DNA of 64,000 nt from Candidatus Kaiserbacteria bacterium (GCA_963699165.1 OY969413.1:404562-468561); one strand, 5' to 3'. Shown: positions 19,300 to 43,753, counted from the first letter of the stretch. Notes: a model not told the origin generated them from the letters alone. A program made the numbers and translations.

Positions 19300-21624
19300 T
19301 TAAAATTCCGAAAAACCTGTCGTCGAGACATTCACCACGAGCGGTACGTTGATAGTGTTGTTGAGAATGTCGGTGCACTTAAACAGGAATGCCGTTTGCG
19401 AGACGAGGCCATTCACCGCATAGGTACCCGATGTCGCGGAACCGCTCACGACTGGTGCCAAGACCGCGGTTCCATTTTTGTAAAGTGTGCAGCTTTGAAC
19501 CAACGTGGCCGCATACGAGAGCGTCGTATTGCCCCCGAGCGGCACGCGGGTATTCGTCGCGGTGAGTGAAATGGTCGGCTGGATAACGGTGATTGTCGGG
19601 AACGGCGGTATGGGGAAGGTATCGCAGGTCAGCCCGAAAGAATACGTTCCGGCCGTACCAAAGGGCCCGACCGTAGTATCGGAGCCGCTTGTTTGCCCCC
19701 CGGTCGAAAATCCATAGGAATTTGAGGTCTGGGTGCAGGAACTGGCGTTGCTGCATGTCCAGGTGAGCGTATCCGTATCGCCGACCTTGATACTCGATTT
19801 GCTCACGGAAATTGTGCAAGCCGGGGCGGGAGCGCAGCTATTTGTGACCGGATTAAACACGAGCGACGACGTGCATTTGTTGCAGCCGCTTGTCGGATTG
19901 GTCGCGCCGTTTGAACATTCGGAACAGGAGGCAGAGCTTCCGCCGCCGCTTCCGGCACAAGTCCATGTATAGAGCGGGGGTACGAACTGATTTGCACCTG
20001 ATGTACCGGGTGCGCAGTTGTAGTGAGTGGAGGCACAGACGCCGTTAACTGCGGCAGCGCATTTATTCCCGTCCCAGCTGCTACCCGAGGCGCAGTTGCC
20101 CGAAATGAGTACGCTGCCGAGCACGTTGCCACCGCTGTCTTTGAGAACAAGCGTTACGGGACTATAGACGCCGGTATCCGTCTGCGAGCCGTTTATTCCG
20201 GTCCACAGTGTTCCACCGCCCTGCTGAACAACGGACGCACTCGGCGTGTTTGACGTATTCCATGAGACGGTTACCGGACACCCGCTTTGTCCCGCTGCGA
20301 CAGTGCAAGGATTCGGGGATGCCGTGATGATGCCGGTGGGTGCGGCAGGCGGGCCGTTCACCGTAAAGCTGCTAACTGTCCATGCCGGCTGGTACGACAT
20401 TGCCGAATTAGCGCAAAGTGATCGTATGTTGTGCACACCGGGAGACAAACCGGTCACGTTCCACGTTCCGGAGGTGAAATATCCGGGACTGGTAGGACCG
20501 CCGTATCCCGAAATGTCTACAAAACCGTTGCCGTCATTTTTGTCGATGTTGACGTTGCAGTAGTATGCTGCGGCCGAGGAAGTGAGTTTAATCGTAGCAG
20601 TTCCTGTTGTCCCGCCTCCCGTGTTGTATAGGACGGGGTTTGGGGACTCTGTAACCGAAGATGTCGGAAGCGGGCAGCTCGAATCCGAAGGCGTGCTCGC
20701 GGAACACGTTCCATCGCACTGAACAGTGCCCGTATTCGTTTGTCCGCAGGCGTTGGCGGCGGAGGTGCAGGCATTTCCGTAGCCGGAAGGATTGGCGGGC
20801 GTGCTCGCGGAACATGCGCCATTACACTGAATGGTGCCCGAGTTCGTTTGGCCGCAGGAATTTGCGGCAGAGGTGCAGGCATTTCCGTAGCCGGAAGGAT
20901 TGGCGGGCGTGCTCGCGGAACATGCGCCATTACACTGAATGGTGCCCGAGTTCGTTTGTCCGCAGGCGTTGGCGGCGGAGGTGCAGGCATTTCCGTAGCC
21001 GGAAGGATTGGCGGGCGTGCTCGCGGAACACGTTCCATCGCACTGAACAGTGCCCGTATTCGTTTGGCCGCAGGAATTTGCGGCAGAGGTGCAGGCATTT
21101 CCGTAGCCGGAAGGATTGGCGGGCGTGCTCGCGGAACACGTTCCATCGCACTGAACAGTGCCCGTATTCGTTTGGCCGCAGGAATTTGCGGCAGAGGTGC
21201 AGGTGCTGCCGTTGCCGGCAGCGCATGCCACGGTGATATTTGCAGAGCAGACGGCCCGCTGTTGCTGAGATAGTCCCGTAATTGTCACCCATGGACCCGT
21301 ATACGTTACTGTACCCGTTTGAGTCGGACACGCTATTCCTGTGGCGCCAAAGTCATAGTTTGCACACAGATTCCCTATGGTAAAAGTGGTCCATGTACCT
21401 CCTGTGTATTGACCGGTGCCGCTGACTTTCACGGAAATCGATTGCCCATAGCTCACGGTCTGTGAAGGTGAAACGGTAATGGAACAGAAAGGTAATATAC
21501 ATGGTTGCAGCCCGCAATTACTATAGGCCACTGCACGATTTGCACCAACCGCTAAAGAAGAAAAAGCGAATAAAACAGAAAGGAGAACGATAAGGTTCCC
21601 TCGAGACCGCATACTCTGATTCAT
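19300..21624 (-). CDS. Large secreted Cys-rich repeat protein (adhesin-like), about 775 aa
   Basis: Signal peptide MNQSMRSRGNLIVLLSVLFAFSSLAVGA, five to six near-identical 36-aa repeats (CSASTPANPSGYGNACTSAANSCGQTNTGTVQCDGT), then further Cys-rich Ig/PKD-like modules. Confidence 0.65.
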   Translation of the reverse strand: MNQSMRSRGNLIVLLSVLFAFSSLAVGANRAVAYSNCGLQPCILPFCSITVSPSQTVSYGQSISVKVSGTGQYTGGTWTTFTIGNLCANYDFGATGIACPTQTGTVTYTGPWVTITGLSQQQRAVCSANITVACAAGNGSTCTSAANSCGQTNTGTVQCDGTCSASTPANPSGYGNACTSAANSCGQTNTGTVQCDGTCSASTPANPSGYGNACTSAANACGQTNSGTIQCNGACSASTPANPSGYGNACTSAANSCGQTNSGTIQCNGACSASTPANPSGYGNACTSAANACGQTNTGTVQCDGTCSASTPSDSSCPLPTSSVTESPNPVLYNTGGGTTGTATIKLTSSAAAYYCNVNIDKNDGNGFVDISGYGGPTSPGYFTSGTWNVTGLSPGVHNIRSLCANSAMSYQPAWTVSSFTVNGPPAAPTGIITASPNPCTVAAGQSGCPVTVSWNTSNTPSASVVQQGGGTLWTGINGSQTDTGVYSPVTLVLKDSGGNVLGSVLISGNCASGSSWDGNKCAAAVNGVCASTHYNCAPGTSGANQFVPPLYTWTCAGSGGGSSASCSECSNGATNPTSGCNKCTSSLVFNPVTNSCAPAPACTISVSKSSIKVGDTDTLTWTCSNASSCTQTSNSYGFSTGGQTSGSDTTVGPFGTAGTYSFGLTCDTFPIPPFPTITVIQPTISLTATNTRVPLGGNTTLSYAATLVQSCTLYKNGTAVLAPVVSGSATSGTYAVNGLVSQTAFLFKCTDILNNTINVPLVVNVSTTGFSEF
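20660..21250 (-). repeat. 108-bp tandem repeat, about 5.5 near-identical copies, inside the 19300..21624 CDS
   Basis: Periodicity is visible directly in the DNA (gcaggcatttccgtagccggaaggattggcgggcgtgctcgcggaaca...). The repeats generate the opposite-strand shadow ORFs 20661..21236, 20740..21273 and 20517..21146. Confidence 0.85.
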
Positions 21625-21802
21625 TATTTTAAGTATACTAAAAAAAAAGCACCTGAACCGATACCGCGAGATTAGTGTGGACAACTTTGTCCGCTCGGGT
21701 CGGGGTTTTCGGTGCGCGGTGGCAATTAGTCGTATGAAATAGGAAAACCGGCTCGCTTGTGGCGAGCCGGCGTTCTTGGTGGTCACGGTGACCTGAGGCG
21801 GT

Positions 21803-22300
21803 CTACTGCGACCGCGGGTACAGGACGACCACCGCGGGCTCGTCCTTCAGCACCGTGCTCGGCACCTGATCGAGCTCGTATCTGCTGACCGAGAACAGCC
21901 GCGGCACACCGGTCGGCGCGCCGACGCTGTCGAACGCGAGAACGCGGGCCCGGCCGTCGGTGGCCGGGATGACGATGTAGTACCCCTGAAGCGGCTGCCC
22001 GCCCCAGGCGGTCTCGAAATCGACGGACCCCGGCGACTTCGAAAAGAATCGGGTGCCGTACTGCAACCCGCCCGGGTTCGTGTTGGCGTATGCGCTCGAA
22101 AGCGCGTCCGCCTGCTGGGGCGTGAACTCGTCAGCGGCGCTCACGGGTCCGAGGCGAACGCCTTGGCCCGTCGAGAGGATGTCGAACGATCCGACCACCG
22201 CGGTCGGGTCGATCGCGTCGGCGCTCGCGAACGAGGGCGCTCCGACGAACGCGGCCAAGGCGAATGCTGCCGCCAGGATTCCGTTGAACCTGATGATCAT
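21803..22300 (-). CDS. Secreted hypothetical protein (165 aa), atypically high GC (about 66%)
   Basis: Signal peptide MIIRFNGILAAAFALAAFVGAPSFASA; strong SD AAAGGAGG at -9; consensus promoter upstream. Codon usage differs from neighbours. Confidence 0.6.
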   Translation of the reverse strand: MIIRFNGILAAAFALAAFVGAPSFASADAIDPTAVVGSFDILSTGQGVRLGPVSAADEFTPQQADALSSAYANTNPGGLQYGTRFFSKSPGSVDFETAWGGQPLQGYYIVIPATDGRARVLAFDSVGAPTGVPRLFSVSRYELDQVPSTVLKDEPAVVVLYPRSQ

Positions 22301-22385: not shown

Positions 22386-23425
22386 GCCCGTGTACGCGTC
22401 CAGTACTTTTGGCAGTCCCCGACGGTTAATGTACACACAATATACCGCAAGGGGGACACCATGCCGAGCGACTGGTGCGGGCGTTTGGTGTTGTACCAAA
22501 TCAGCCAGTCGACAAGCTTCAGATTGAAGGAATGAATATCGTCCCGCAGCAGGCCCCGATTCAGCATGATGAAGTCCTCGGAGACGGTGCGATTGAATCG
22601 TTCGACGTGGGCATTCATCTTGGGAGTGCGGGGGCGGGTGTGAAAGTGCGTGAGCCCGAGTTCGGCACAGGCATCCTCGAAGTGTTTGGCGAACTCGCTC
22701 CCGTTGTCGGTCTGCAACTCGTCGATATCGAAGGGGCAAACCTCGATGACTCGGCGAAGGAAGTCGTCCGCGCTTCTCGACGAGTGGTTCGTATACGCGC
22801 CCGCAAAGGCGAACTTCCGCTCCACGTCCACTGCCGTGAGGACGTACCGCTTCACGCCGTCGATGAAGCGGACGACGGTATCGAGCTCCATGCCGCGCTT
22901 GCCGGTGCGGCGAAGCTTGGTACGGCGTTTCTGCGGTGTTTCCGTGTGATTGCCCGTACGTGCGTGGAACGAGAGCCGGCTCTGCTGCGGGAGCAGACCG
23001 CGGTTCTTCAAATCCAGAATGACCCGCCCAACGTATGACTCCGACACGGAGTACCCTTCTTCGCGCAGGAGAACGGCAAGCTTTGCTTTCCCAAGCCGGG
23101 GATGCGCCTGTCGTTCGCGGATGATGAAATCCTCGACCTCGGGCAGAACAGTCCTCCTTCGACGCGCCTTCGGCGCAGTGCTCTTCGGGTCAAGTGCATC
23201 AATGCGGCCCTCGTGGGCTTTGAGTTCCTCCTTCCAGCGATACAAGGTGCGCTCCGAGGTGCCAAAGGCGTCGTATGCGGCCTCCGTCCCGTGCATGTCC
23301 CAGAATCCCAATATCTTCACCCGTCTGTCGACTTCCTTTGGTTTCCGCATATGCCGCAATCGTATCGTCCTTTCCCACATGCTCAACCAGCCCTTCGTAC
23401 CCCTGAAATTGCTTCTGATGTGCAT
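22382..23425 (-). CDS. IS481-family DDE transposase (rve integrase core), copy 1
   Basis: N-terminal HTH (GTSERTLYRWKEEL) plus integrase core with TAVDVERK, DNGSEF and HVERFNRT motifs (D, D, E). The stop codon lies 2-3 codons beyond the IS end. Confidence 0.85.
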   Translation of the reverse strand: MHIRSNFRGTKGWLSMWERTIRLRHMRKPKEVDRRVKILGFWDMHGTEAAYDAFGTSERTLYRWKEELKAHEGRIDALDPKSTAPKARRRRTVLPEVEDFIIRERQAHPRLGKAKLAVLLREEGYSVSESYVGRVILDLKNRGLLPQQSRLSFHARTGNHTETPQKRRTKLRRTGKRGMELDTVVRFIDGVKRYVLTAVDVERKFAFAGAYTNHSSRSADDFLRRVIEVCPFDIDELQTDNGSEFAKHFEDACAELGLTHFHTRPRTPKMNAHVERFNRTVSEDFIMLNRGLLRDDIHSFNLKLVDWLIWYNTKRPHQSLGMVSPLRYIVCTLTVGDCQKYWTRTRA

Positions 23426-23470
23426 ATATCCTCGGTTATGAGGACTGCCAAATGTATCTGAACTTATGCA
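22391..23470 (-). mobile_element. IS481-like insertion sequence, copy 1 (1080 bp); ends TGCATAAGTT...GCGTACA; about 28-bp imperfect inverted repeats; 5-bp TSD GCCCG
   Basis: Near-identical (1-2 SNPs) to 31601..32680 and 42639..43718. TSD gcccg at 22386-22390 and 23471-23475. Confidence 0.85.
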
Positions 23471-25000: not shown

Positions 25001-26158
25001 ATGACTTTTGATCTTGCGGTAAATATTCTTGCACTTCTTTTCACGTTCTTCATTGCGGGAACGTTGCTCGGCGCCCTGTTCTTTAAACCGGTCCGCGAAA
25101 AGCTGGCGCGGATTTTTCGCATAAAAAAACGCCTCGCTCTTTCGCGAAGCACGCACAATCCGATTTTGAAACCCGACGCCGTCAGTCCTTGGAAAGCCGA
25201 ATCCGTGATGAATCCGGCCGCAATTGTGCTGAAAGGCCGAACACATCTTATTTTCCGCGCGGTCGGCTCGGACGGCGTTTCGCGGCTCGGTTATGCGAGC
25301 AGTCCGGACGGTTTTATTTTTGACGAACAACTTCCCTACCCAATCTACGCGGCACGAACCCCGGGCGGCACGCCGACGCGTGAGCGGCGCTACTCGCCGG
25401 TGCTCTACCCATCGGGCGGCAGCTGGGGCGGGTGCGAAGACCCGCGGATGGTCGCCATCGACGGCCGCGTATATGTGACATTCAACACGTTCATGAACTG
25501 GAACATGAGCGTCAGCGTGATTTGGTTTAGCGAAGAAGATTTCCTCGCGAAACAATTCCATAAATTGGAAGGACCGTATGTTATCGCGAACTCTCCGCGC
25601 GAGAAGAACTGGATGCTATTCCCGGAAAAGATTAATGGTCACGTCGCCGTTTTAATCGGCATCATAGACGAAGATGAGTCCCGCGTGCGTGTGGAATATA
25701 CCGATGACTTGACCACCCTCTCGCGGGCGACTTTCAAAACCATTGACCCGCAGAAAGTGCCGGATAGGCCCATCGCCTGGCATGTGCATGTGCGGAGCGC
25801 CGGGCCACCGCCAATCAAGACCGACCGCGGTTGGCTCGTTTTCTATCATGCACACGATGCGGCAGAACCAAGTCGCTATAAACTCGGCGCAATGCTGCTC
25901 GACCTCAACGACCCATCAAAAGTTCTTCATCGAAGCATTTGTCCCGTCCTTTCTCCGGACGAGTCATACGAAAATGACGGGAAACCGGGCATCGTGTACG
26001 CATGCGGTGCCACCGTCCAAAATGGGACACTCTATGTGTACTACGGCGGCGCGGACAAGGTTGCATGCGTCGCGACCGCGCCTCTGGATGATTTTCTCGA
26101 CGCACTTATCTCCGGCACCGAAATCGCGCTTGAATCGGAACCGTTACATGCCCCGTAA
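25001..26158 (+). CDS. Membrane-anchored GH130-family glycoside phosphorylase/hydrolase (beta-mannoside-acting family)
   Basis: N-terminal TM, then NPILKP...NPAAIV..FRAVGSDGVSRLGYASSPDG and GGCEDPRM, the GH130/PF04041 hallmark; five-bladed-propeller-like repeats. Confidence 0.7.
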   Translation: MTFDLAVNILALLFTFFIAGTLLGALFFKPVREKLARIFRIKKRLALSRSTHNPILKPDAVSPWKAESVMNPAAIVLKGRTHLIFRAVGSDGVSRLGYASSPDGFIFDEQLPYPIYAARTPGGTPTRERRYSPVLYPSGGSWGGCEDPRMVAIDGRVYVTFNTFMNWNMSVSVIWFSEEDFLAKQFHKLEGPYVIANSPREKNWMLFPEKINGHVAVLIGIIDEDESRVRVEYTDDLTTLSRATFKTIDPQKVPDRPIAWHVHVRSAGPPPIKTDRGWLVFYHAHDAAEPSRYKLGAMLLDLNDPSKVLHRSICPVLSPDESYENDGKPGIVYACGATVQNGTLYVYYGGADKVACVATAPLDDFLDALISGTEIALESEPLHAP

Positions 26159-26166
26159 TTACAAAC

Positions 26167-27276
26167 ATGGATTCTCAATCAACCCCCAGTCCCGAGCCGA
26201 TCGACGAAGTTATCGCGCCGTCGCAATTTGAATTTTTAGCATCGAAACCGAGCGTTGCCGCATACCGCCAGCACGAGGGCAGAGTCATCGGAGGCGACGC
26301 CCGCTTCAAGTATTTCATGGCGGTGACGCTCGACCCGCGAACGAACAATCGAAGCGGCATTGTCCGCTGTATTATGAGCCGCGACGGCGATGTCGCGGTC
26401 GAGGGATACGTTGACAGGAGCGAATTGCATCGCATCGACGGCGAGTCGCTCGAGCAGTTCGCCGTCGGCGATGAAATCGTCATCCGAAACAGCTCGGAAA
26501 TCATCTTCGGTCTCACCAAAGGAGACGAGGCGTGGGATTTCCTCGGTTTTGAAGACCCGGACATTTGGATAGACCCCGACACGCAGCTGCTGCATCTGTA
26601 TTTTACGATTCCTTTCAAACATCGGAATTCCGAGTTCGCGATTTGTCTCGGACACGCCGTGGGTCAGGATGTGGACTCGCTCGTCATGACGCAGCCGGCG
26701 CTGCTTCCGAAACAACTCGGCGGCCGCGGCAACGGCGCGAAAGAAGTGTCCATTGCTCCGAAGAATTCGCGCGGAGTGCATCTGAATCTTATCGAGTCGG
26801 CTGCCGGAGGGTTTGAGGGCGATTCGGCATCGGTTGCGCAAATCGCCGCCGCGAACGACATGGGCGGCGTGTGGGAATACGGAGACGTCGTTTTCAACCC
26901 GCTTGCGGAACGCATTGCGTGGATTGCGGGACACGCATCGCCCGGACCGCTGCTTCCCCGCTCGTTTATCGACATCGGCGAAGGAAAAGCGGTCGGCATC
27001 ATGAACGGCCGCGAGGCAAATCGCCGCGAAGGCGAATCGGTTTTGTACGGAACGTTTTCCGTAGGGCTCTTTATATACGATTACGAGAACGGAGCCATCG
27101 ACTGGGTTTCGCCGGAGCCGCTCATTCGCGACAGCGAGGCGCGAACGATAACCTTTGCGAGCCAGTTCGTCGAGGCCGTTCCGGGCCAAGAAGGCATTCT
27201 CTATGCACACGTCGACGACTCGTTCGTGCGCGCGTACACGCTGTATGCCGAAGGCATTCGCTCGCTTCTACCATAA
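26167..27276 (+). CDS. Divergent GH130-like beta-propeller glycosidase-related protein
   Basis: 369 aa; carries FEDPDIW in place of CEDPR. Sits between two clear GH130 genes in the same orientation. Confidence 0.5.
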   Translation: MDSQSTPSPEPIDEVIAPSQFEFLASKPSVAAYRQHEGRVIGGDARFKYFMAVTLDPRTNNRSGIVRCIMSRDGDVAVEGYVDRSELHRIDGESLEQFAVGDEIVIRNSSEIIFGLTKGDEAWDFLGFEDPDIWIDPDTQLLHLYFTIPFKHRNSEFAICLGHAVGQDVDSLVMTQPALLPKQLGGRGNGAKEVSIAPKNSRGVHLNLIESAAGGFEGDSASVAQIAAANDMGGVWEYGDVVFNPLAERIAWIAGHASPGPLLPRSFIDIGEGKAVGIMNGREANRREGESVLYGTFSVGLFIYDYENGAIDWVSPEPLIRDSEARTITFASQFVEAVPGQEGILYAHVDDSFVRAYTLYAEGIRSLLP

Positions 27277-27281
27277 CTGCC

Positions 27282-29276
27282 ATGTTTGTCATTCGCCGAG
27301 AACCCCATAATCCAATCCTCACGCCGCGCCGCGAGCATTTGTGGGAATCGCTTTCCACTTTTAATCCGTCCGTGGTGCGCACCAAAGAAGGCGTGCGCCT
27401 GTACTATCGCGCCTTTGGAAATCAAAATGCGCTCCATACGCCGATTGAAGGCCTTTCGAGCATCGGCACCGCTTTTTCCGAAGACGGCGTGTTTTTTCAT
27501 TCGCGAAAACAAGTTGTCGCGCCGCAGGAATCGTGGGACGCGTTCGGATGCGAAGACCCGCGCGTCACCTTCTTCGAAGGCCGTTGGTACTGTTTTTACA
27601 CCGCGCTCGGCGGCTACCCGTTCGGTCCCGAAAACATCAAAGTCGCCCTTGCCATCGGCAACGAACCGGAAAATCTCACCGAGCGGCATCTCATAACGCC
27701 GTTTAATGCGAAAGCGGCGACATTGTTCCCCGAGCGCATCGATGGCGACATCGTGATGCTGCTTACAGCGCATACCGATTGGACGAGCGAACATCCGCGG
27801 CCGACGATTGCGCTCGCGCGGGCGAAACACATCGAGGACTTTTTCGATCCCGGCTTTTGGCAGGAGTGGCACGACCACCTTCCCGACCACGCGCTTTCGG
27901 AATTGCGCCGAAACGACGCCGACCATATCGAGGTGGGCGCATCGCCGCTTTTGACCGACAAAGGATGGCTGCTCGTCTATTCGTACATTCAAAATTATTA
28001 TGACGAGCATAAACGCACATTCTCGGTCGAAGCGGCGCTGCTTGATGAAAAAGATCCGAGAAAGCTCACTTCGCGCACCGAGTCGATGTTTGTGCCGGAA
28101 GAAATTTACGAAGAATACGGTCTCGTGCCGCACATCGTCTTCCCGACGAGCATTTCGCTCGACGAAAACGGAATGCTGGATATTTGGTATGGCGCAGCCG
28201 ACACCGTATGCGCGAAAGCCAGCGTGCGTCTCGCCGACCTATTGCGCTCGCTGAACCCGGAAAAACCCGCGCGCACGTTCATCCGGGCCGCGCAAAATCC
28301 GATTTTAGCTCCGCAAGGCAGCGGATTTGAAAGCCGCGACGTCTTTAATCCGGCAGCCGTTGACGTGGACGGCAAGGTGCACATTTTGTACCGGGCGATG
28401 GATGCGGCAAACACTTCGACCATCGGTCTGGCGATTTCGAAAGACGGGGTAACAATCGACGAACGTCTGCCGGAACCCGTGTACGTGCCGCGCGCCGACT
28501 TCGAGATGAAGCTCGGAAATCCGACCGGAAATTCCGGTTGCGAAGACCCGCGCATCGTCCGCATCGGCGATACGCTTTACATGACCTACACCGCTTACGA
28601 TGGCGTACATGCGCCTGCGGGAGCCGTTTCTTCGATTTCAGTTGACGATTTTCTCGCCCGCCGGTTTGAAAAATGGAGCAAGCCGTTTTTGATTACTCCC
28701 GAGGGCATCGATGATAAGGACCTTACGTTTTTCCCGGAAAAAATAAATGGGAATTTTCTGCTCTATCATCGCATAAGCAATCAGATTTGCGCCGACCCCT
28801 TCGCCGAGCTTGCTCCCGGCATTCGCGCTAAGCGCTGCATCGATGTGATGGGGCCTCGCCACGGCATGTGGGACGGTACGAAAGTCGGCAGCGCGGCGCC
28901 GCCGATTAAAGTCGGCGAAAACTGGCTTGTGATTTATCACGGCGTCTCGCGCCACGCGACCTACCGCCTCGGCGCCGCGCTGCTCGACCCGTCCGGCCTT
29001 TCGGTACTCGCGCGCACGGCCGATGCCATTTTTGAACCGCTAGAATCGTATGAAAAAGTTGGCGAGGTGCCGAATGTCGTCTTTGCATGCGGCGCCGTTG
29101 TCCGCGATGACACGCTCTTCCTCTACTACGGCGGCGCGGACAAAGTCATCGGTGTCGCGACGGGCTCGGTCGCGCACATTATCGATGCGCTTACGTCGTC
29201 CGGCAACCGAGATTCGGCAAGTTTGAGACCGTCGGAGCCGGTGCGGCAGGACTTTGCCGCGTTTGCGACACACTGA
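27282..29276 (+). CDS. Tandem-domain GH130 protein (two complete GH130 modules fused, 664 aa)
   Basis: Module 1 HNPILTP...FGCEDPRVTFFEGRWYCFYTA; module 2 QNPILAP...GNSGCEDPRIVRIGDTLYMTYTAYDG. True start ATG at 27282; the ORF-track start at 26871 is rejected because it overlaps the previous gene. Confidence 0.75.
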   Translation: MFVIRREPHNPILTPRREHLWESLSTFNPSVVRTKEGVRLYYRAFGNQNALHTPIEGLSSIGTAFSEDGVFFHSRKQVVAPQESWDAFGCEDPRVTFFEGRWYCFYTALGGYPFGPENIKVALAIGNEPENLTERHLITPFNAKAATLFPERIDGDIVMLLTAHTDWTSEHPRPTIALARAKHIEDFFDPGFWQEWHDHLPDHALSELRRNDADHIEVGASPLLTDKGWLLVYSYIQNYYDEHKRTFSVEAALLDEKDPRKLTSRTESMFVPEEIYEEYGLVPHIVFPTSISLDENGMLDIWYGAADTVCAKASVRLADLLRSLNPEKPARTFIRAAQNPILAPQGSGFESRDVFNPAAVDVDGKVHILYRAMDAANTSTIGLAISKDGVTIDERLPEPVYVPRADFEMKLGNPTGNSGCEDPRIVRIGDTLYMTYTAYDGVHAPAGAVSSISVDDFLARRFEKWSKPFLITPEGIDDKDLTFFPEKINGNFLLYHRISNQICADPFAELAPGIRAKRCIDVMGPRHGMWDGTKVGSAAPPIKVGENWLVIYHGVSRHATYRLGAALLDPSGLSVLARTADAIFEPLESYEKVGEVPNVVFACGAVVRDDTLFLYYGGADKVIGVATGSVAHIIDALTSSGNRDSASLRPSEPVRQDFAAFATH

Positions 29277-29286
29277 TGCGCCTGTC

Positions 29287-30030
29287 ATGCCCAAGCTGAT
29301 TTTTTTCGACCTCGACGGTACGCTTGCCGAAAGTAAGCAGCCGCTCGACGATGAGATGTCGGCACTGCTTGCAAAGCTTCTGACCCGCACGGATGCGGCG
29401 GTTATTTCCGGCGGACTCCTTTCGCAATTTCTCAAGCAGGTTGTCGGGCGGCTGCCGATTGAAGCCGATTTCGGGCGCTTGCATCTGCTGCCGACATCCG
29501 GCGCGGCACTTTATGAGTGGCACAATGACGAGTGGAAAAAAATATACGAGGAGCGCTTGTCGGACAAAGACGCATTCCACATTCAGGACGTGATGCAGTC
29601 GGCTGCGGAAGAAACCGGCATTATTGATTTTGCACAGCCGTCTTGGGGCGAGCGCATAGAAAACCGCGGGAGCCAAGTCACGCTTTCGGCGCTTGGCCAG
29701 CTCGCGCCGATTGCCGAGAAAAAGAAGTGGGACCCTGACCACGCAAAACGGCGAATACTGCTGGAGAAAATGGCGGCTCTCTTGCCCGATTTTTTGGTAA
29801 GCATCGGCGGCTCGACGAGCATCGACATCACAAAGCGCGGCATCGACAAAGCATACGGCGTCCACAAACTCTGCGACCGGCTCGGCGTGAAAGAGCAGGA
29901 TGCGCTCTACGTCGGCGACGAACTGCAGTCGGGCGGCAATGACGAGGCGGTATACAAGACCGACATTCAAACAAAACCCGTAAAAAATCCGCAGGATACG
30001 AAACGAATTATCGAGAAACTGCTCGCGTGA
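29287..30030 (+). CDS. HAD-superfamily phosphomannomutase (eukaryotic PMM type, PF03332-like)
   Basis: HAD motif I FFDLDGTL; C-terminal SIGGSTSIDITKRGIDKAYGVH...YVGDELQSGGNDEAV aligns with the human PMM2 region [20 protein letters not shown]...FFGDKTMPGGNDHEIF. Confidence 0.7.
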   Translation: MPKLIFFDLDGTLAESKQPLDDEMSALLAKLLTRTDAAVISGGLLSQFLKQVVGRLPIEADFGRLHLLPTSGAALYEWHNDEWKKIYEERLSDKDAFHIQDVMQSAAEETGIIDFAQPSWGERIENRGSQVTLSALGQLAPIAEKKKWDPDHAKRRILLEKMAALLPDFLVSIGGSTSIDITKRGIDKAYGVHKLCDRLGVKEQDALYVGDELQSGGNDEAVYKTDIQTKPVKNPQDTKRIIEKLLA

Positions 30031-30345
30031 ACGAAGTGGTTTCCTCTCTTTGCATACTGCTCGGAATTTTTTTCAGCATGGCGGGTGATATTTTCTTGAA
30101 GCGAAGCGGCTTTCGGTAATTTTGGACTGCTTGGTCTCCGTGTGGTGTTTTATGCGCTTGGCGCCCTCCCTGTCGCGTTTGCGTTCAAAAAATTGCAGTT
30201 TGGGACGGTCTTTCTCATATGGGAAGCTTTCTCGGTCATAATTGCTCTCATTTTGGCGGGCTTTCTTTTCCACGAACCGCTGACCGCTTACAAAATAATT
30301 GCGCTCCTTCTTGCAATTGGAGCGCTGTGTTTCAGCTATATGTAG
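30026..30345 (+). pseudogene. SMR/EmrE-type small multidrug-resistance transporter interrupted by a +1 frameshift
   Basis: Frame A reads VNEVVSSLCILLGIFFSMAGDIFLKRSGFR* (stop at about 30119). Frame B continues (F)GLLGLRVVFYALGALPVAFAFKKLQFGTVFLIWEAFSVIIALILAGFLFHEPLTAYKIIALLLAIGALCFSYM. Together they give an EmrE-like 4-TM pattern of about 105 aa. Confidence 0.4.
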
Positions 30346-30419
30346 TCCCCCTTTACTTCGGAGGAAAATAGAATATGCTTCCCGAGGATATTAGTTAGTA
30401 TGACGCTTTAGTAGGGAGT

Positions 30420-31031
30420 TTGGGAAAAATGCCGACAGAAGCAAAAGATCGTCGAGTAATCGACGTGCTTTTGAGCCATCAAATTCTTCGGGATTTCAAT
30501 CTGGGAGAATTGCCCGATGAAGGATACGTAGTCGCCGCTTGCGGAGATAAGGACCGTTTTATCCACGGTACGCTTGACCATTTGCTGCAGCTGCGCAAGC
30601 CAGGTGGTGCTATGCCCCATCTGGTCTGTTTCAACGGAGGGCCATTGGTAATTCCGCTCTGTTCTCCACTCAACGCCGAAAACGACGGGAAATCTATGCT
30701 GAGGCAGATTTACGGAGCGGTAAGAATCAAGAACCTTAGGGCTGTCTGTACGATTGTGCATGCTCCATGCGGCGCGGGAGGTGATGCCAACCTCAACATG
30801 CTCGAATCCCTTCTTCTGCATGCGTTGGTACCGGCGGCCATGCGTGATTTCGGAAAAAAACGAGATTTGCCGATGCTAGACGTGATTCCGCTTTTCAACG
30901 TGGAGTATCCGGGCGCGGACGGCGAGTTTTTCAGAACCTATCGTTTCGAACACGAACTCTTTCAGACGTTTATGACCACCCCGAAAGCGCGTCAGCTCGA
31001 AGAGCTCTATGGGCGCGCGGTCGCCGTGTAA
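30420..31031 (+). CDS. Hypothetical protein (203 aa), lower GC (about 52%)
   Basis: Clean ORF with no recognisable motif; Cys/His-containing segment VHAPCGAGGDANL. Confidence 0.45.
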   Translation: MGKMPTEAKDRRVIDVLLSHQILRDFNLGELPDEGYVVAACGDKDRFIHGTLDHLLQLRKPGGAMPHLVCFNGGPLVIPLCSPLNAENDGKSMLRQIYGAVRIKNLRAVCTIVHAPCGAGGDANLNMLESLLLHALVPAAMRDFGKKRDLPMLDVIPLFNVEYPGADGEFFRTYRFEHELFQTFMTTPKARQLEELYGRAVAV

Positions 31032-31102
31032 GGAATGAGGACGAGACGCGGGCTGTAAGGCTCGCGTTTTCTCTTTGTCTCAGACCCGAATAATGCGCCG
31101 CA

Positions 31103-31582
31103 TTGTACGGATTTGCGTTTTGGTATACATTCCAAGCAGAACAGCACGCCAACGAAGGAGTTCGAATGGCCGCCTTTTTATTAATTGCCCGGGAATCGCC
31201 CGACAGAATCGGCGCACTGGCATTTGCGGATTTGGTTTGGGCGAAAACCGATAATTCCGCAAGGACGAAGTTGAGGAAGGCGCTCAAATCGCTGTCGCCG
31301 GAGATTTCCGATTGGAGATTCTGGACAGAGCGGTTATCGGACGACCTTTTAACCTACCTGCGCACGAATGCCGATGTATGCGCAAGAATCTTCCTGGTGA
31401 CAGGCCGACAGTTGCCGGAGCAAATCAATAGAATCATAGATGTGACGTTCGTATTCCCGAAAATGGGCGAAGAGGACAAATGCGAGGCGATTCGCACTGA
31501 TGCGCTTCGTGCGAAATATCCGCACATTTCGGAGTGGACGATAATCGTCCAAGAATTGACACTCAATCAACTTCTCCCGTGA
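31103..31582 (+). CDS. Hypothetical protein (159 aa)
   Basis: ORF ending 13 nt before the TSD of IS copy 2; no recognisable motif. Confidence 0.45.
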   Translation: MYGFAFWYTFQAEQHANEGVRMAAFLLIARESPDRIGALAFADLVWAKTDNSARTKLRKALKSLSPEISDWRFWTERLSDDLLTYLRTNADVCARIFLVTGRQLPEQINRIIDVTFVFPKMGEEDKCEAIRTDALRAKYPHISEWTIIVQELTLNQLLP

Positions 31583-31600
31583 ATTTTGCACAGCAAAAAA

Positions 31601-32680
31601 TGCATAAGTTCAGATACATTTGGCAGTCCTCATAACCGAGGATATATGCGCATCAGAAGCAATTTCAGGGGTACGAAGGGCTGGTTGAGCATGTGGGAAA
31701 GGACGATACGATTGCGGCATATGCGGAAACCAAAGGAAGTCGACAGACGGGTGAAGATATTGGGATTCTGGGACATGCACGGGACGGAGGCCGCATACGA
31801 CGCCTTTGGCACCTCGGAGCGCACCTTGTATCGCTGGAAGGAGGAACTCAAAGCCCACGAGGGCCGCATTGATGCACTTGACCCGAAGAGCACTGCGCCG
31901 AAGGCGCGTCGAAGGAGGACTGTTCTGCCCGAGGTCGAGGATTTCATCATCCGCGAACGACAGGCGCATCCCCGGCTTGGGAAAGCAAAGCTTGCCGTTC
32001 TCCTGCGCGAAGAAGGGTACTCCGTGTCGGAGTCATACGTTGGGCGGGTCATTCTGGATTTGAAGAACCGCGGTCTGCTCCCGCAGCAGAGCCGGCTCTC
32101 GTTCCACGCACGTACGGGCAATCACACGGAAACACCGCAGAAACGCCGTACCAAGCTTCGCCGCACCGGCAAGCGCGGCATGGAGCTCGATACCGTCGTC
32201 CGCTTCATCGACGGCGTGAAGCGGTACGTCCTCACGGCAGTGGACGTGGAGCGGAAGTTCGCCTTTGCGGGCGCGTATACGAACCACTCGTCGAGAAGCG
32301 CGGACGACTTCCTTCGCCGAGTCATCGAGGTTTGCCCCTTCGATATCGACGAGTTGCAGACCGACAACGGGAGCGAGTTCGCCAAACACTTCGAGGATGC
32401 CTGTGCCGAACTCGGGCTCACGCACTTTCACACCCGCCCCCGCACTCCCAAGATGAATGCCCACGTCGAACGATTCAATCGCACCGTCTCCGAGGACTTC
32501 ATCATGCTGAATCGGGGCCTGCTGCGGGACGATATTCATTCCTTCAATCTGAAGCTTGTCGACTGGCTGATCTGGTACAACACCAAACGCCCGCACCAGT
32601 CGCTCGGCATGGTGTCCCCCTTGCGGTATATTGTGTGTACATTAACCGTCGGGGACTGCCAAAAGTACTGGACGCGTACA
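31601..32680 (+). mobile_element. IS481-like insertion sequence, copy 2 (1080 bp), 5-6-bp TSD AAAAA(A)
   Basis: Same ends as copy 1; flanked by aaaaaa on both sides. Confidence 0.85.
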
Positions 32681-32689
32681 AAAAATTGA
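31646..32689 (+). CDS. IS481-family DDE transposase, copy 2
   Basis: Identical protein to copy 1 apart from the flank-encoded tail (..YWTRT then KN*). The TGA stop at 32687-32689 lies outside the IS within TTGACT. Confidence 0.85.
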   Translation: MRIRSNFRGTKGWLSMWERTIRLRHMRKPKEVDRRVKILGFWDMHGTEAAYDAFGTSERTLYRWKEELKAHEGRIDALDPKSTAPKARRRRTVLPEVEDFIIRERQAHPRLGKAKLAVLLREEGYSVSESYVGRVILDLKNRGLLPQQSRLSFHARTGNHTETPQKRRTKLRRTGKRGMELDTVVRFIDGVKRYVLTAVDVERKFAFAGAYTNHSSRSADDFLRRVIEVCPFDIDELQTDNGSEFAKHFEDACAELGLTHFHTRPRTPKMNAHVERFNRTVSEDFIMLNRGLLRDDIHSFNLKLVDWLIWYNTKRPHQSLGMVSPLRYIVCTLTVGDCQKYWTRTKN

Positions 32690-32731
32690 CTGCTGCAGTT
32701 GCATATGATTTTATCAAAAAGGAGGATTAAC

Positions 32732-40486: not shown

Positions 40487-41020
40487 ATGGGAAAGGGGCA
40501 AGCGACATCCGTGTCGCTCACCCCTTTCTAGCAACCGCGGCGACATGACGGCGGCATTGCGCCGTGCGGCGGTGTCGTGATCACCTCCCTTCGACTTCTG
40601 TTACCTGGGGTTACAAAAGCCGAAGAGAGGATGCAAGGTTGCCATGATGCCTCCTAGCGCGAGATGTGCAGATTGGCGACTAGTCTTTTGAATTCGAACG
40701 TTTGATACATTGAGCGAATGAAAAAACCTCCGGCGGTGCGCACTTCACAAGGTCCGAACGAGACGAAATACAGATACTGTTAGCGAAGGGATACTCTTTG
40801 CAAGATGTCGGAGATGCACTCGACCGACCGAAGAGTGTCATATGGTACGAGACGCAAAAGAAGAGGAAGGGACGGCCGTATGATGCTGCATATGCGCATC
40901 ACATTTCATACGTACGAAGGAAATACAGCCGAGCGGTCGGCAAGATGATTGCTCTCGACCCGAAGCTCCGGAAGTTCATCGAGGCGGGTATTCAGACTCT
41001 GTTGGCACAGCTCCCGTATC

Positions 41021-41824
41021 ATGGAAGCTATGTACACGCTCAAACAAATTCCGTCTGAAGTGCAGATTAGAAAGTTTTTGCGGCGAACGTTGTTCGGAAA
41101 GAATGTGTTTTGCCCGCTCTGCCGCTCGCGCAGGATTGTGCGGTACGAAGACCGGTACCGGTGTGTTGCCTGCCGCCGAAGGTTCTCGCTCCTCTCGCAT
41201 ACCTGGCTCTCAAACCTCAAGCTTCCGCTCCAGACGTGGTGGATGCTCCTCTGGTGCTGGACGATACGAGAACCCGTCTTGCAGGCCATGGAGCTCACGC
41301 ATTTGCCTGAACGAACGATACGCCGCTGGTATGCCACCTTTCGTGAGCATTTGCCCCAAGAAGAGCATATTCTCGAGCGTATCGTGCAGATGGACGAGGC
41401 ATATTTCAAGAACGCAGCTCTCGTGATGGCCAAGCAGAAAGGAACGAGAAAGCTTGCCTATACCGTCATGCACAATCGCTTCCCGAACAAGACGGACGTG
41501 ATGGACTTTCTCTTTGCCAAAGTGAAGCCGGGGAGCGAGTTGTGGACCGATGGCGGTTCGATATACCGGGGTGTCGGCAAGCGATGGCCGGTCTCCCACA
41601 GCAGAGACATTCATTCAAAATTCGAGTTCGAACATACCTCCGAAATCGAAGGCGTGTTCGGCGTATACCGCACCTTTGTGCGGAGGATGTATCATCATCA
41701 CTGGAGCGAGAACCTCGAGCAATACGTGAGGGAATTCTGCTTCAGATTTTCCTCACCGGAATTGTTCGGAAATCCGCGCACTTACTTATTAAAATCATTA
41801 ACGCTTGTGCCAACTCGTTCTTAA
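41021..41824 (+). CDS. IS1595-family (ISXO2-like) transposase with N-terminal zinc ribbon
   Basis: CPLCRSRRIVRYEDRYRCVACRRRF zinc ribbon, then a DDE_Tnp_IS1595-like core (QMDEAYF...LWTDGGSIYRGV...HSRD...HTSEIEGVFG). Confidence 0.7.
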   Translation: MEAMYTLKQIPSEVQIRKFLRRTLFGKNVFCPLCRSRRIVRYEDRYRCVACRRRFSLLSHTWLSNLKLPLQTWWMLLWCWTIREPVLQAMELTHLPERTIRRWYATFREHLPQEEHILERIVQMDEAYFKNAALVMAKQKGTRKLAYTVMHNRFPNKTDVMDFLFAKVKPGSELWTDGGSIYRGVGKRWPVSHSRDIHSKFEFEHTSEIEGVFGVYRTFVRRMYHHHWSENLEQYVREFCFRFSSPELFGNPRTYLLKSLTLVPTRS

Positions 41825-42573: not shown

Positions 42574-42629
42574 GGGGTTTGGGTGCCATTGGTTTCCCAT
42601 TAAGATACTCGTATATGAAGGATTGTTTG

Positions 42630-43718: not shown

Positions 43719-43753
43719 TTCATCCGGCGTGCAGGCTGTGATAAACTTTGAGA

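What the first reader, a model, noticed from the sequence alone, without database searches (positions are those of the whole stretch)
25001..30030. Mannoside-salvage-like cluster: three GH130-type genes (four catalytic modules, one membrane-anchored, one a tandem fusion) followed by a eukaryote-type HAD phosphomannomutase
GCEDPR hallmarks occur three times (25001.. once, 27282.. twice), and a divergent FEDPD variant sits in the middle gene. GH130 enzymes are beta-mannoside phosphorylases or hydrolases that yield mannose-1-phosphate. The downstream PMM-type HAD enzyme (FFDLDGTL...SIGGSTSIDITKRGIDKAYGV...YVGDELQSGGNDEAV, aligning with human PMM2) would interconvert Man-1-P and Man-6-P. This gives a coherent route for scavenging beta-mannosides or N-glycan cores. 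A four-module GH130 arsenal is a large investment for a small genome and suggests feeding on host or environmental mannans.
Basis: partly seen in the sequence, partly recalled or inferred. Interest (0 to 1): 0.6.

Follow-up and report, generated by a model that had tools for sequence, protein, structure and literature searches.

The report
Conserved beta-1,2-mannoside operon in Paceibacteria
A four-gene operon in a tiny-genome (CPR) bacterium encodes four GH130-type sugar-processing modules plus a sugar-phosphate mutase. Only one module keeps the phosphate site of a true mannoside phosphorylase, and the operon is shared across the lineage rather than special to this genome.

Summary
Four co-directional genes, 5-10 nt apart, lie at 25001-30030.

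- **g1** is a GH130 with one N-terminal membrane helix.
- **g2** has no sequence-family hit, but its confident AlphaFold model matches only GH130/GT108 propellers.
- **g3** is a tandem GH130-GH130 protein.
- **g4** is a HAD-IIB protein that passes the Pfam PMM threshold.

- All three sequence-recognisable modules carry the Glu/Lys pair that predicts beta-1,2-mannoside specificity. This does not fit beta-1,4-mannan or N-glycan cores.
- Only the C-terminal module of g3 keeps the phosphate-binding Arg and His. These are lost in its N-module (Thr/Ser, checked in 126 homologues) and partly lost in g1 (Arg lost).
- g1's catalytic domain is predicted to face the cytoplasm.
- g4's closest solved relative is the Lactococcus alpha-phosphoglucomutase, not a PMM. 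Its cap residues are a mixture of the two types.
- The g1-g3-g4 core recurs in most related Paceibacteria/Kaiserbacteria loci examined, with no transporter.
- The window holds no mannose-6-P isomerase or GDP-mannose gene.

Best reading: a lineage-wide cytoplasmic beta-1,2-mannoside phosphorylase/mutase operon with three non-phosphorolytic GH130-like partners. It is a new variant of a known kind, of moderate interest.

The parts
25001..26158 (+). g1: membrane-tethered GH130 (385 aa). TM helix at aa 9-27. The catalytic and sugar-site residues N71, R86, E146, D147, K202, H283 and D352 are kept. The phosphate-binding Arg is replaced by G220.
   Evidence: Pfam GH130 3e-34. The best solved relative is the 1,2-beta-oligomannan phosphorylase 9fj8, at 3e-39. 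Residue mapping against Teth514_1788/1789 and UhgbMP used 18 orthologues: the Arg position is Ser in 15 of the 16 HR-lacking orthologues, Asn in one and Gly here. TM and flank charges: N flank -1, C flank +8.
26167..27276 (+). g2: divergent GH130-like five-bladed propeller (369 aa). It belongs to a compact, unannotated Paceibacteria family. Family-invariant residues include E129, D130, K192, E210, N280, E283, D350 and D351.
   Evidence: No Pfam, NCBIfam or PDB sequence hit. More than 1000 homologues at about 60% identity, all named 'hypothetical'. AF2 model pLDDT 90.6, pTM 0.87. The top 27 Foldseek PDB hits are all GH130 or GT108 (best E 3.8e-11, TM 0.6-0.7, 9-16% identity). A profile search of 1.84 billion representatives found only 129 hits. 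Eight of the longer, mostly weaker hits scanned against Pfam showed no GH130 match.
27282..28262 (+). g3 N-module (aa 1-327): GH130 propeller with proton donor D92 and sugar-site residues N28, R43, E91, K144 and D307. It lacks the phosphate-binding Arg (T162) and His (S234). The loop after position 162 is 9 residues longer than in the Thermoanaerobacter enzymes.
   Evidence: Alone it hits 7fip at 4.7e-33, and the alignment to UhgbMP places T162 at R168 and S234 at H231. In 126 tandem homologues position 162 is T in 123, S in 2 and A in 1. Position 234 is S in 108, A in 14, C in 3 and G in 1. The other six residues are invariant.
28263..29276 (+). g3 C-module (aa 328-664): GH130 with the complete beta-1,2-mannoside phosphorylase signature (N356, R371, E421, D422, K479, H496, R497, H553, D620).
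   Evidence: Best solved relatives are the beta-1,2-mannobiose phosphorylase 7fip and 9fj8. All signature residues are invariant or nearly so in 126 homologues. The criteria come from PMC7660257 Table 2. The whole-protein AF2 model has pLDDT 88.3 and pTM 0.86.
29287..30030 (+). g4: HAD-IIB phosphohexomutase of the PMM/alpha-PGM clade (247 aa). Motifs: D8-x-D10-G-T, K188, D211, D219. Cap residues: K17, R127, Q138, K145, S178, D180.
   Evidence: Pfam PMM 41.8 bits against cut-off 22.4, and TIGR01484 above its cut-off. The best solved relative is 4bnd, the Lactococcus alpha-phosphoglucomutase, at 1.2e-41; PMM2 scores 1.2e-13. Identity is 35% to 4bnd and 28% to PMM2. Cap residues are conserved in 16 orthologues. 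It lies directly downstream of g3 in 17 of the 20 fetched loci that hold DNA downstream of g3.

Best explanation
This is a lineage-conserved operon of Paceibacteria (Kaiserbacteria-like CPR bacteria) that processes beta-1,2-linked mannosides on the cytoplasmic side of the membrane.

**Steps shown by sequence criteria**
- The C-terminal module of the tandem protein g3 has every residue that defines a GH130 beta-1,2-mannoside phosphorylase. It should therefore interconvert beta-1,2-mannooligosaccharide + Pi with alpha-mannose-1-phosphate + a shortened chain.
- g4 is a PMM/alpha-PGM-type HAD phosphohexomutase.

**Steps inferred**
- g4 interconverts the hexose-1-phosphate made or used by g3 with hexose-6-phosphate. 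This links the mannoside pool to central sugar-phosphate metabolism. The reaction can run in either direction.
- The other three GH130-type modules are the g3 N-module, the membrane-tethered g1 and the very divergent g2. They keep the proton-donor Asp and the -1/+1 sugar-binding residues but lack the canonical phosphate site.
- These three modules therefore most likely bind the same beta-1,2-mannoside and act without phosphate. They could be hydrolases or mannosyl-transferases, or, for the g3 N-module, a fixed sugar-binding partner in an intramolecular pseudo-dimer.

Whether the mannoside is imported or made by the cell itself is not resolved.
For: - **Family and closest relatives:**
- **Published decision residues:** UhgbMP numbering gives proton donor D104, Pi-binding R168/H231 and the linkage pair Y103/R150 (E/K means beta-1,2), from PMC7660257. 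PMC4599007 shows that loss of the basic residues marks non-phosphorylases.
- **Mapping of those residues:** the g3 C-module is complete. The N-module has T162/S234. Both patterns hold in 126 homologues down to about 40% identity.
- **g1:** the Arg is lost in the window and in the 16 orthologues that lack HR, 14 of them with a clear TM. It is kept only in the two TM-less Moraniibacteria relatives.
- **g1 topology:** the N flank has charge 0 or -1 and the C flank +2 to +8 in the TM-bearing orthologues. By the positive-inside rule the catalytic domain is cytoplasmic.
- **g2:** the fold is GH130/GT108-like.
- **Synteny:** g1 lies directly upstream of g3 in most of the 20 fetched loci that hold upstream DNA. 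g4 lies directly downstream in 17 of the 20 with downstream DNA. g2 sits between them in the window, in L003/L004 and in L007.
- **Operon structure:** intergenic gaps are 5-10 nt.
- **g3 model:** pTM 0.86 for the two-propeller chain suggests a fixed mutual arrangement.
- **g4:** it has the mutase-type motifs and is closest to the PMM/alpha-PGM clade.
Against: - No enzyme here has been assayed.
- The N-module has a conserved loop, 9 residues longer, directly after the lost Arg (H164, D166 and T168 invariant; R173 at 90% or more). This loop could rebuild a phosphate or nucleotide site. I could not inspect coordinates.
- In GT108, active-site residues alone do not decide phosphorylase versus transferase activity (PMC10913872). 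Residue-based calls are therefore fallible.
- g2's link to GH130 rests on predicted fold only. hhalign was not significant (E 0.24), so its residue equivalences are tentative.
- g4's sugar specificity is open. Its closest characterised relative is a glucose mutase.
- g4 is absent from the Nomurabacteria and Moraniibacteria loci.
- No mannose-6-P isomerase or other mannose gene lies in the window.
Confidence: 0.6

Rival explanations
1. The cluster is a catabolic scavenging route for exogenous beta-mannosides or N-glycan cores. Several GH130 phosphorylases release Man-1-P, and the PMM converts it to Man-6-P for glycolysis, feeding the cell on host or environmental mannan.
For: - GH130 and PMM family assignments hold.
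- The GH130-mutase adjacency is conserved.
- Thermoanaerobacter has a precedent in which two beta-1,2-mannoside phosphorylases are proposed to salvage Man-1-P (PMC4264767).
Against: - The Glu/Lys pair in all three recognisable modules predicts beta-1,2 specificity. It does not predict beta-1,4-Man or Man-beta1,4-GlcNAc.
- Only one of the four modules has the phosphate site.
- The Thermoanaerobacter cluster carries an ABC transporter, a GH5 and a guanylyltransferase. No transporter, binding protein or isomerase appears next to this cluster in the loci whose genes were listed (L003-L005) or in this window. The only solute-binding protein here is about 14 kb away.
- g1's catalytic domain is predicted to be cytoplasmic, not surface-exposed.
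- The cluster is a lineage-wide feature, not a genome-specific expansion.
Confidence: 0.25
2. An endogenous beta-1,2-mannan cycle, like mannogen in Leishmania. The phosphate-site-less modules (g1 at the membrane, the g3 N-module) build a beta-1,2-mannoside from GDP-Man or Man-1-P. The g3 C-module mobilises it by phosphorolysis without spending ATP. g4 connects Man-1-P to the hexose-6-P pool.
For: - Leishmania runs such a cycle with GT108 enzymes. These share the GH130 fold and mechanism and include strict transferases that lack the phosphate-pocket Arg (PMC10913872; PMC12814180).
- Beta-1,2-specific GH130 phosphorylases show weak GDP-Man transferase activity.
- g2's fold search returns GT108 MTPs among its hits.
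- The operon has no transporter and is very highly conserved: g3 73-79% and g4 63-71% among the listed homologues. This looks housekeeping-like.
- The catalytic domains are cytoplasmic.
Against: - There is no direct evidence for such a polymer in any CPR bacterium.
- No GDP-mannose pyrophosphorylase is seen in the window.
- The authors of PMC12814180 regard GH130 transferase activity as possibly without physiological relevance.
- Residue patterns cannot distinguish a hydrolase from a transferase.
Confidence: 0.17
3. The HAD gene is simply the cell's housekeeping alpha-phosphoglucomutase (Glc-1-P/Glc-6-P), as in Lactococcus. It has no metabolic link to the GH130 genes, and the adjacency is inherited gene order.
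For: - The best solved relative is the L. lactis alpha-PGM 4bnd, at 1.2e-41.
- g4 shares K17, Q138 and K145 with that enzyme where PMMs have Arg.
- From my own knowledge (Neves et al. 2006, J Biol Chem 281:36864), that enzyme was reported to have no activity on mannose phosphates. The paper is not held, so I could not check this.
Against: - The adjacency to g3 holds in 17 of 20 loci, with g3 identity to the window ranging from about 55% to 77%.
- The gaps are operon-like or the genes overlap.
- g4 keeps the PMM-type Ser-x-Asp (S178/D180) where the Lactococcus enzyme has Thr-x-Asn.
- Eukaryotic PMMs also convert glucose phosphates, so the two roles are not exclusive.
Confidence: 0.15

Closest known systems
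Teth514_1788 / Teth514_1789 (Thermoanaerobacter sp. [quoted passage not shown]
   Same: They are the best solved relatives of g1 and of both g3 modules. They share the five-bladed propeller, the Asp proton donor, the Glu/Lys beta-1,2 pair and, in the g3 C-module, the His-Arg and His phosphate site. As here, two GH130 units lie side by side in one cluster that handles Man-1-P.
   Different: Identity is only 27-37%. NCBIfam equivalog scores are below cut-off. Here the two units are fused into one chain and one has lost the phosphate site. A third unit is membrane-tethered. The partner enzyme is a HAD mutase instead of a guanylyltransferase, and there is no ABC transporter or GH5.
GH130_3 beta-1,2-mannosidases (BT3780, BACOVA_03624)
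   Same: These are GH130 members that lack the basic phosphate-binding residues yet keep the proton donor, the Glu next to it and the beta-1,2 Lys. g1, the g3 N-module and apparently g2 show the same general pattern.
   Different: The hydrolases replace the basic residues with a Glu pair (E227/E268) and usually carry signal peptides. g1 has Gly or Ser and keeps the His. The g3 N-module has Thr/Ser. None of the proteins has a signal peptide. Only g2 has invariant carboxylates (E210, E283) near the equivalent positions, and that alignment is tentative.
Leishmania GT108 mannogen enzymes (MTP1/2 strict transferases; MTP3/4 transferase-phosphorylases)
   Same: They share the fold and the proposed mechanism of GH130 and act on beta-1,2-mannan. 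The family mixes phosphorylases with members that lack the phosphate-pocket Arg. They appear among g2's structural hits (6q50, 6q4w, 6q4z).
   Different: They are a separate CAZy family with no detectable sequence match to the proteins here. No transferase activity has been shown for any module here.
Lactococcus lactis alpha-phosphoglucomutase PgmH (PDB 4BND) and eukaryotic PMM1/PMM2
   Same: All are HAD-IIB enzymes with a DxDGT nucleophile motif and a PMM-type cap. g4 aligns end to end with 4bnd (aa 1-246) and passes the Pfam PMM threshold.
   Different: Identity is 35% to PgmH and 28% to PMM2. The cap pattern is mixed. K17, Q138 and K145 match PgmH, where PMM2 has R21, R134 and R141. S178 and D180 match PMM, where PgmH has T/N.
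GH130-GH130 bimodular entries in CAZy
   Same: Tandem GH130-GH130 proteins were already noted: four sequences among the 1592 CAZy entries of 2018 (PMC7660257).
   Different: Those were reported as rare and uncharacterised, with both modules falling in the same network node. Here the fusion is the rule across a lineage. The 120 listed homologues, out of 5666 GH130-type matches, are all two-module length. The two modules are only 28% identical and differ systematically at the phosphate site.

Membership tests
GH130 (Pfam PF04041) | Profile HMM score above the curated threshold | tested here: met
   g1 scores 118.9 bits and g3 315.8 bits in two stretches, against a cut-off of 26. This feature is not met for g2, which has no hit.
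GH130 (fold) | Five-bladed beta-propeller most similar to solved GH130 structures | tested here: met
   The g2 model has pLDDT 90.6. Its top 27 Foldseek PDB hits are all GH130 or GT108, ahead of GH43, GH32 and GH62. The g3 model has pLDDT 88.3 and is all-beta in two repeats, but I did not fold-search it.
GH130 | Catalytic proton-donor Asp (UhgbMP D104) and -1 subsite Asn/Asp | tested here: met
   g1 has N71, D147 and D352. The g3 N-module has N28, D92 and D307. The g3 C-module has N356, D422 and D620. These are invariant in orthologues. g2 has D130 and D350/D351 at tentatively equivalent places, with D56 instead of Asn.
GH130 mannoside phosphorylases | Phosphate-binding Arg (UhgbMP R168) and His (H231) | tested here: met
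   This holds for the g3 C-module only. R497 is present in 126 of 126 homologues and H553 in 125 of 126. The criteria come from PMC7660257.
GH130 mannoside phosphorylases | Phosphate-binding Arg and His in the g3 N-module, g1 and g2 | tested here: not met
   The g3 N-module has T162 (T123/S2/A1) and S234 (S108/A14/C3/G1). g1 has G220 at the Arg position, while orthologues have Ser in 15 and Asn in 1; His283 is kept. g2 has no Arg or His at the tentatively equivalent E210/S211 and N280.
beta-1,2-specific GH130 | Glu next to the proton donor plus Lys at the UhgbMP R150 position (E/K pair) | tested here: met
   The pairs are g1 E146/K202, g3 N-module E91/K144 and g3 C-module E421/K479. All are invariant in orthologues. 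The rule comes from PMC7660257 and PMC4599007.
GH130_3 beta-1,2-mannosidases | Carboxylate pair in place of the phosphate-binding residues, and a signal peptide | tested here: not met
   g1 has Gly/Ser and keeps His. The g3 N-module has Thr/Ser. No signal peptide is present, and g1's helix has its positive flank on the C-terminal side. g2 is inconclusive: E210 and E283 are invariant, but the alignment is not significant.
NCBIfam equivalog beta-1,2-mannobiose phosphorylase (NF052550) | Score above the equivalog cut-off of 450 bits | tested here: not met
   g1 scores 164.3 bits. g3 scores 360.5 bits summed over two modules.
Eukaryote-type phosphomannomutase family (Pfam PF03332, HAD-IIB) | Profile HMM above threshold, and the DxDGT nucleophile/acid-base motif | tested here: met
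   PF03332 scores 41.8 bits against 22.4, and TIGR01484 64.4 against 41.8. D8 and D10 lie in FFDLDGTL, and K188, D211 and D219 are present.
Phosphomannomutase (PMM1/PMM2-type specificity) | Cap residues that hold the substrate in PMM2: R21, R123, R134, R141, S179, D181 (residue list recalled from the PMM1/PMM2 structure literature, not re-read here) | tested here: inconclusive
   g4 has K17, R127, Q138, K145, S178 and D180, conserved in 16 orthologues. Three of the four arginines are replaced, as in the Lactococcus alpha-PGM, while Ser and Asp are kept as in PMM.
Phosphohexomutase activity (mutase rather than phosphatase) | Turnover through a hexose-1,6-bisphosphate intermediate | not testable with these tools
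   This needs an enzyme assay. Only similarity to mutases is shown.

The most novel reading that the evidence does not exclude
CPR bacteria of the Paceibacteria keep an internal beta-1,2-mannan (mannogen-like) reserve or envelope glycan. The polymer would be built by GH130-derived modules that have lost the phosphate site: the membrane-tethered g1, the g3 N-module and perhaps g2. It would be mobilised by the fused phosphorylase module, with the HAD mutase coupling it to hexose-6-phosphate. This would be a bacterial counterpart of the Leishmania mannogen cycle, carried out by GH130 proteins, in organisms thought to have almost no storage metabolism.
Probability: 0.15. Interest if true: 0.75.

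Novelty: new variant of a known kind. Interest (0 to 1): 0.45.

Why it matters
**For GH130 enzymology.** GH130 is used as a model for how one fold switches between phosphorylase, hydrolase and transferase chemistry. This operon puts four diverged versions side by side:
- a complete beta-1,2 phosphorylase module;
- a fused partner that lost both phosphate ligands but kept every sugar ligand, across 126 sequences;
- a membrane-tethered form that lost only the Arg;
- an isolated family (g2) that is recognisable only by fold.

That gives natural, testable variants for the phosphate-site rules.

**For CPR biology.** The operon is a strongly conserved piece of sugar metabolism in organisms with about 1-Mb genomes. 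Databases currently label it 'hypothetical', 'GH43/DUF377' or 'HAD hydrolase'. Knowing whether it degrades a host glycan or cycles an internal mannan would say something concrete about how these episymbionts obtain or store carbon.

Tried and rejected
- **g2 sequence searches.** Searches against Pfam, NCBIfam and PDB sequences found nothing.
- **g2 profile comparison.** hhalign of the g2 family against a GH130 alignment was not significant (Prob 0.25%, E 0.24). It did pair FEDPD with LEDPR and AKEVSIAP with NKDASLFP.
- **g2 family profile search.** A search of 1.84 billion representatives gave 129 hits and no bridge to GH130. Eight of the longer, mostly weaker hits had no Pfam match; one showed a meaningless DUF1861 hit at E 0.17.
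- **Promoter and terminator scan.** The counts were no higher than in shuffles.
- **Literature.** The primary papers on the Lactococcus alpha-PGM are not held. Full-text searches turned up no paper that treats a GH130 cluster in CPR bacteria, and none using the terms 'GH130 domains', 'tandem GH130' or 'GH130 modules'.
- **IS cargo, considered and rejected.** I considered that the cluster might be cargo of the flanking identical IS copies. The same order, VIT1 - g1 - g3 - g4 - PIF1 helicase, occurs in other genomes.
- **g1 decay, considered and rejected.** I considered that g1 might be decaying in this genome. It differs at 18 of 159 near-invariant columns, against 1-15 for the orthologues. It is more diverged but intact.

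Full report
**1. What is in the sequence**

The + strand of 25001-30030 carries four ORFs:
- g1, 25001-26158 (385 aa);
- g2, 26167-27276 (369 aa);
- g3, 27282-29276 (664 aa counted from the ATG; the mechanical ORF begins at an upstream GTG);
- g4, 29287-30030 (247 aa from the ATG).

The gaps between them are 8, 5 and 10 nt. The motif GCEDPR is found once in g1 and twice in g3, and GFEDPD once in g2. The window comes from a Minisyncoccia (CPR/Patescibacteria) metagenome-assembled genome. Proteins identical to g2, g3 and g4 are on record with a longest contig of 993,452 bp.

**2. Family assignments**

g1 and g3 pass Pfam GH130 by a wide margin, and g3 does so in two stretches. The GH43 match on g3 is below threshold. 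Their best solved relatives are the Thermoanaerobacter beta-1,2-mannobiose and 1,2-beta-oligomannan phosphorylases (7FIP, 9FJ8), followed by other GH130 enzymes. NCBIfam's equivalog models for these enzymes are hit only below their cut-offs.

g2 has no hit in Pfam, NCBIfam or PDB sequences. It has more than 1000 homologues at about 60% identity, all unnamed or 'hypothetical', from Paceibacteria, Kaiserbacteria, Liptonbacteria and Nomurabacteria. An AlphaFold model built on 45 of them is confident (pLDDT 90.6, pTM 0.87). Its 27 best Foldseek matches in the PDB are all GH130 or the related GT108 mannogen enzymes, with best E 3.8e-11, TM 0.6-0.7 and 9-16% identity. GH43, GH32 and GH62 propellers come lower.

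- hhalign gave E 0.24;
- a profile search of 1.84 billion representatives found only 129 family members and no bridge to GH130.

g4 passes Pfam PMM (41.8 vs 22.4 bits) and TIGR01484 HAD-IIB.

**3. Phosphorylase or not, module by module**

Li et al. (PMC7660257, Table 2) and Cuskin et al. (PMC4599007) give the working rules, in UhgbMP numbering:
- proton donor D104;
- phosphate ligands R168 and H231, both absent from the hydrolases;
- linkage pair Y103/R150, where Y/R means beta-1,4, E/K means beta-1,2 and E/R means beta-1,3.

I mapped these with the HMMER alignments to UhgbMP, Teth514_1788 and Teth514_1789 and with MAFFT alignments.

| Module | Sugar-site and proton-donor residues | Phosphate-site positions |
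|---|---|---|
| g3 C-module | N356, R371, E421, D422, K479, D620 | H496-R497 and H553, the full beta-1,2 phosphorylase signature |
| g3 N-module | N28, R43, E91, D92, K144, D307 | T162 at the Arg position, S234 at the His position |
| g1 | N71, R86, E146, D147, K202, D352 | G220 at the Arg position; H283 kept |

The g3 patterns hold in 126 tandem homologues that reach down to about 40% identity. The C-module residues are invariant or nearly so. In the N-module, position 162 is T in 123, S in 2 and A in 1, and position 234 is S in 108, A in 14, C in 3 and G in 1. The six sugar-site residues of the N-module are 126/126.

For g1, the orthologues read 'HS' where the phosphorylases read 'HR': Ser in 15 and Asn in 1. 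Only the two Moraniibacteria relatives, which lack the TM helix, keep the Arg.

For g2, the tentative equivalences are D56, R67, E129, D130, K192, E210/S211, N280/E283 and D350/D351. There is no Arg or His at the phosphate positions. Two invariant carboxylates lie close to them, reminiscent of the Glu pair of the GH130_3 hydrolases. This last point is inference from a non-significant alignment.

In summary, all three sequence-recognisable modules are of the beta-1,2 type, and only one of the four modules is a canonical phosphorylase.

Two caveats apply:
- The N-module has a conserved loop, nine residues longer, immediately after position 162 (H164, D166 and T168 invariant; R173 at 90% or more). 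This is the 'L2' region that PMC12814180 links to nucleotide-sugar use, and it might rebuild a binding site.
- Work on GT108 shows that active-site residues alone do not fix phosphorylase versus transferase activity (PMC10913872).

**4. Architecture**

The two g3 modules are only 28% identical to each other, so the fusion is old. The AlphaFold model of the whole chain has pLDDT 88.3 and pTM 0.86. For a two-domain chain of 664 residues this implies a defined mutual arrangement. I read it as an intramolecular version of the dimers that GH130 enzymes normally form (inference).

g1 has one helix at aa 9-27. In the window and in the 14 orthologues with a clear N-terminal helix, the short N-terminal flank has charge 0 or -1. 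The 25 residues after the helix carry +2 to +8. By the positive-inside rule the catalytic domain faces the cytoplasm (inference). 'Membrane-anchored' is therefore correct, but the enzyme is probably not displayed on the surface.

**5. The HAD enzyme**

The best solved relative of g4 is the Lactococcus lactis alpha-phosphoglucomutase 4BND (E 1.2e-41, aligned end to end, 35% identity). The PMMs follow at E 1e-13 or weaker, at 28% identity to PMM2.

In g4 and 16 syntenic orthologues, the cap positions that are R21, R134 and R141 in PMM2 are K17, Q138 and K145, as in the Lactococcus enzyme. The Ser-x-Asp of PMMs (S178/D180) is kept, where the Lactococcus enzyme has Thr-x-Asn.

From my own knowledge, Neves et al. 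2006 reported the Lactococcus enzyme to be glucose-specific. That paper is not in the library, so this is unverified here.

g4 is thus a member of the PMM/alpha-PGM clade and very probably a hexose-phosphate mutase. Its preference for mannose or glucose phosphates is open.

**6. Conservation and context**

I obtained loci through the look-up of encoding contigs and a scan of GTDB species genomes. I compared them with the window by BLAST.
- g1 lies directly upstream of g3 in most of the 20 fetched loci that hold upstream DNA.
- g4 lies directly downstream of g3 in 17 of the 20 that hold downstream DNA. It is missing in the Nomurabacteria and Moraniibacteria loci.
- g2 sits between g1 and g3 only in the window, in L003/L004 (55% identical) and in L007. 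In L005 an unrelated 205-aa ORF takes that place. In L001 and L002, g2 homologues lie elsewhere, away from any GH130 gene.
- A VIT1 gene upstream and a PIF1-type helicase downstream recur too, so this is a native locus.

Among the 120 listed homologues of each, g3 is 73-79% identical and g4 is 63-71% identical. This points to strong purifying selection.

None of the loci whose genes were listed shows a transporter, binding protein, isomerase or guanylyltransferase next to the cluster. The 64-kb window has none either, apart from an orphan solute-binding protein about 14 kb away.

The Thermoanaerobacter beta-1,2 cluster is different. It has an ABC transporter, a GH5 and a Man-1-P guanylyltransferase.

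**7. Most likely mechanism**

*Shown by sequence criteria:* one beta-1,2-mannoside phosphorylase module and one PMM/alpha-PGM-type mutase are encoded in a tight, conserved operon.

*Inferred:*
- The phosphorylase interconverts beta-1,2-mannooligosaccharide + Pi with alpha-Man-1-P.
- The mutase links that sugar phosphate to hexose-6-phosphate.
- The three phosphate-site-less modules bind the same glycan and act as hydrolases, as transferases or as a binding partner.
- All of this happens at or near the cytoplasmic face of the membrane.

I put 0.6 on this general statement.

The source of the mannoside is unresolved:
- An internal, mannogen-like cycle gets about 0.15-0.17.
- A rival in which g4 is merely the housekeeping PGM gets 0.15.

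**8. Comparison with what is known, and novelty**

The parts belong to known families. CAZy already lists a few GH130-GH130 proteins: four of 1592 entries in 2018, none characterised. Full-text searches turned up no paper on a GH130 cluster in CPR bacteria.

The following appear to be new:
- the systematic asymmetry of the tandem protein, with one module complete and one without phosphate ligands;
- the membrane-tethered, Arg-less g1 family;
- the isolated g2 family, which is GH130-like only by fold;
- the conserved pairing of these with a PMM/alpha-PGM-type mutase across a CPR lineage.

I rate this a new variant of a known kind, with interest 0.45. It is not a surprise at the level of principle.

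Noticed in passing
window 22391-23470 (-), 31599-32690 (+), 42629-43720 (-): Three copies of one insertion sequence lie within 21 kb. The transposase has HTH_32 plus rve/rve_3 integrase-core domains. The aligned arms are 100% identical over about 1.08 kb. Two copies in inverted orientation bracket the segment that holds uppP, VIT1 and the GH130 operon. Synteny with other genomes indicates insertions into a native locus rather than transposon cargo.
   Followed up: partly
window 30031-31585: In related genomes g4 is usually followed within about 0.7 kb by the PIF1-type helicase, though the gap is larger in a few loci. Here about 2.9 kb intervene. They hold a 67-aa fragment resembling the C-terminal half of an SMR/EamA transporter (30142-30345), two ORFs without any Pfam hit (30420-31031 and 31103-31582), and then the IS copy.
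   Followed up: partly
window 40949-41824 (+): A second kind of mobile element is present: an IS1595-family transposase (DDE_Tnp_IS1595 plus its zinc ribbon). With the three IS copies, this makes an unusually transposon-rich stretch for a genome of about 1 Mb.
   Followed up: no
L001 8001-9017 and L002 8001-9017: Homologues of g2 (58-59% identical) lie away from any GH130 gene in other Paceibacteria, next to unrelated genes. The g2 family is therefore only sometimes part of the operon.
   Followed up: partly
window 61664-63907 (-): A 747-aa protein combines a GDSL lipase/acylhydrolase domain with a Peptidase_S74 domain. The latter is the intramolecular chaperone of endosialidase and phage tail-fibre proteins.
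   Followed up: no
window 19300-21786 (-) and 21803-22300 (-): An 828-aa ORF and an adjacent 165-aa ORF have no Pfam match at all. The 165-aa ORF has a hydrophobic, signal-like N-terminus. They lie directly upstream of the first IS copy.
   Followed up: no
window 9589-11471 (-): A protein with a type IV secretion pilin-like domain (T4SS_pilin/TrbC) lies next to an orphan sugar-type solute-binding protein (SBP_bac_8/SBP_bac_1). No permease or ATPase genes are nearby.
   Followed up: no
window 26236-27210 (-), 27201-28133 (-), 29191-29970 (-): Long ORFs of 259-324 aa run antisense to g2, g3 and g4. They are probably shadow ORFs of the G+C-rich coding strand. I did not test them for homologues.
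   Followed up: no
L007, L010, L011, L021, L024, L025 (record titles): Several GTDB records that carry this operon are titled 'uncultured Candidatus Saccharibacteria'. Their proteins are 73-77% identical to those of Paceibacteria/Kaiserbacteria records. The titles look like automatic labels rather than real taxonomy.
   Followed up: no
L009 8090-8878, L011 1741-2523, L023 7998-8807: Some g4 orthologues carry a short insertion of 8-16 residues, rich in Ser and Thr (for example PST...SLGTSAD), in the cap region. The window's g4 lacks it.
   Followed up: no
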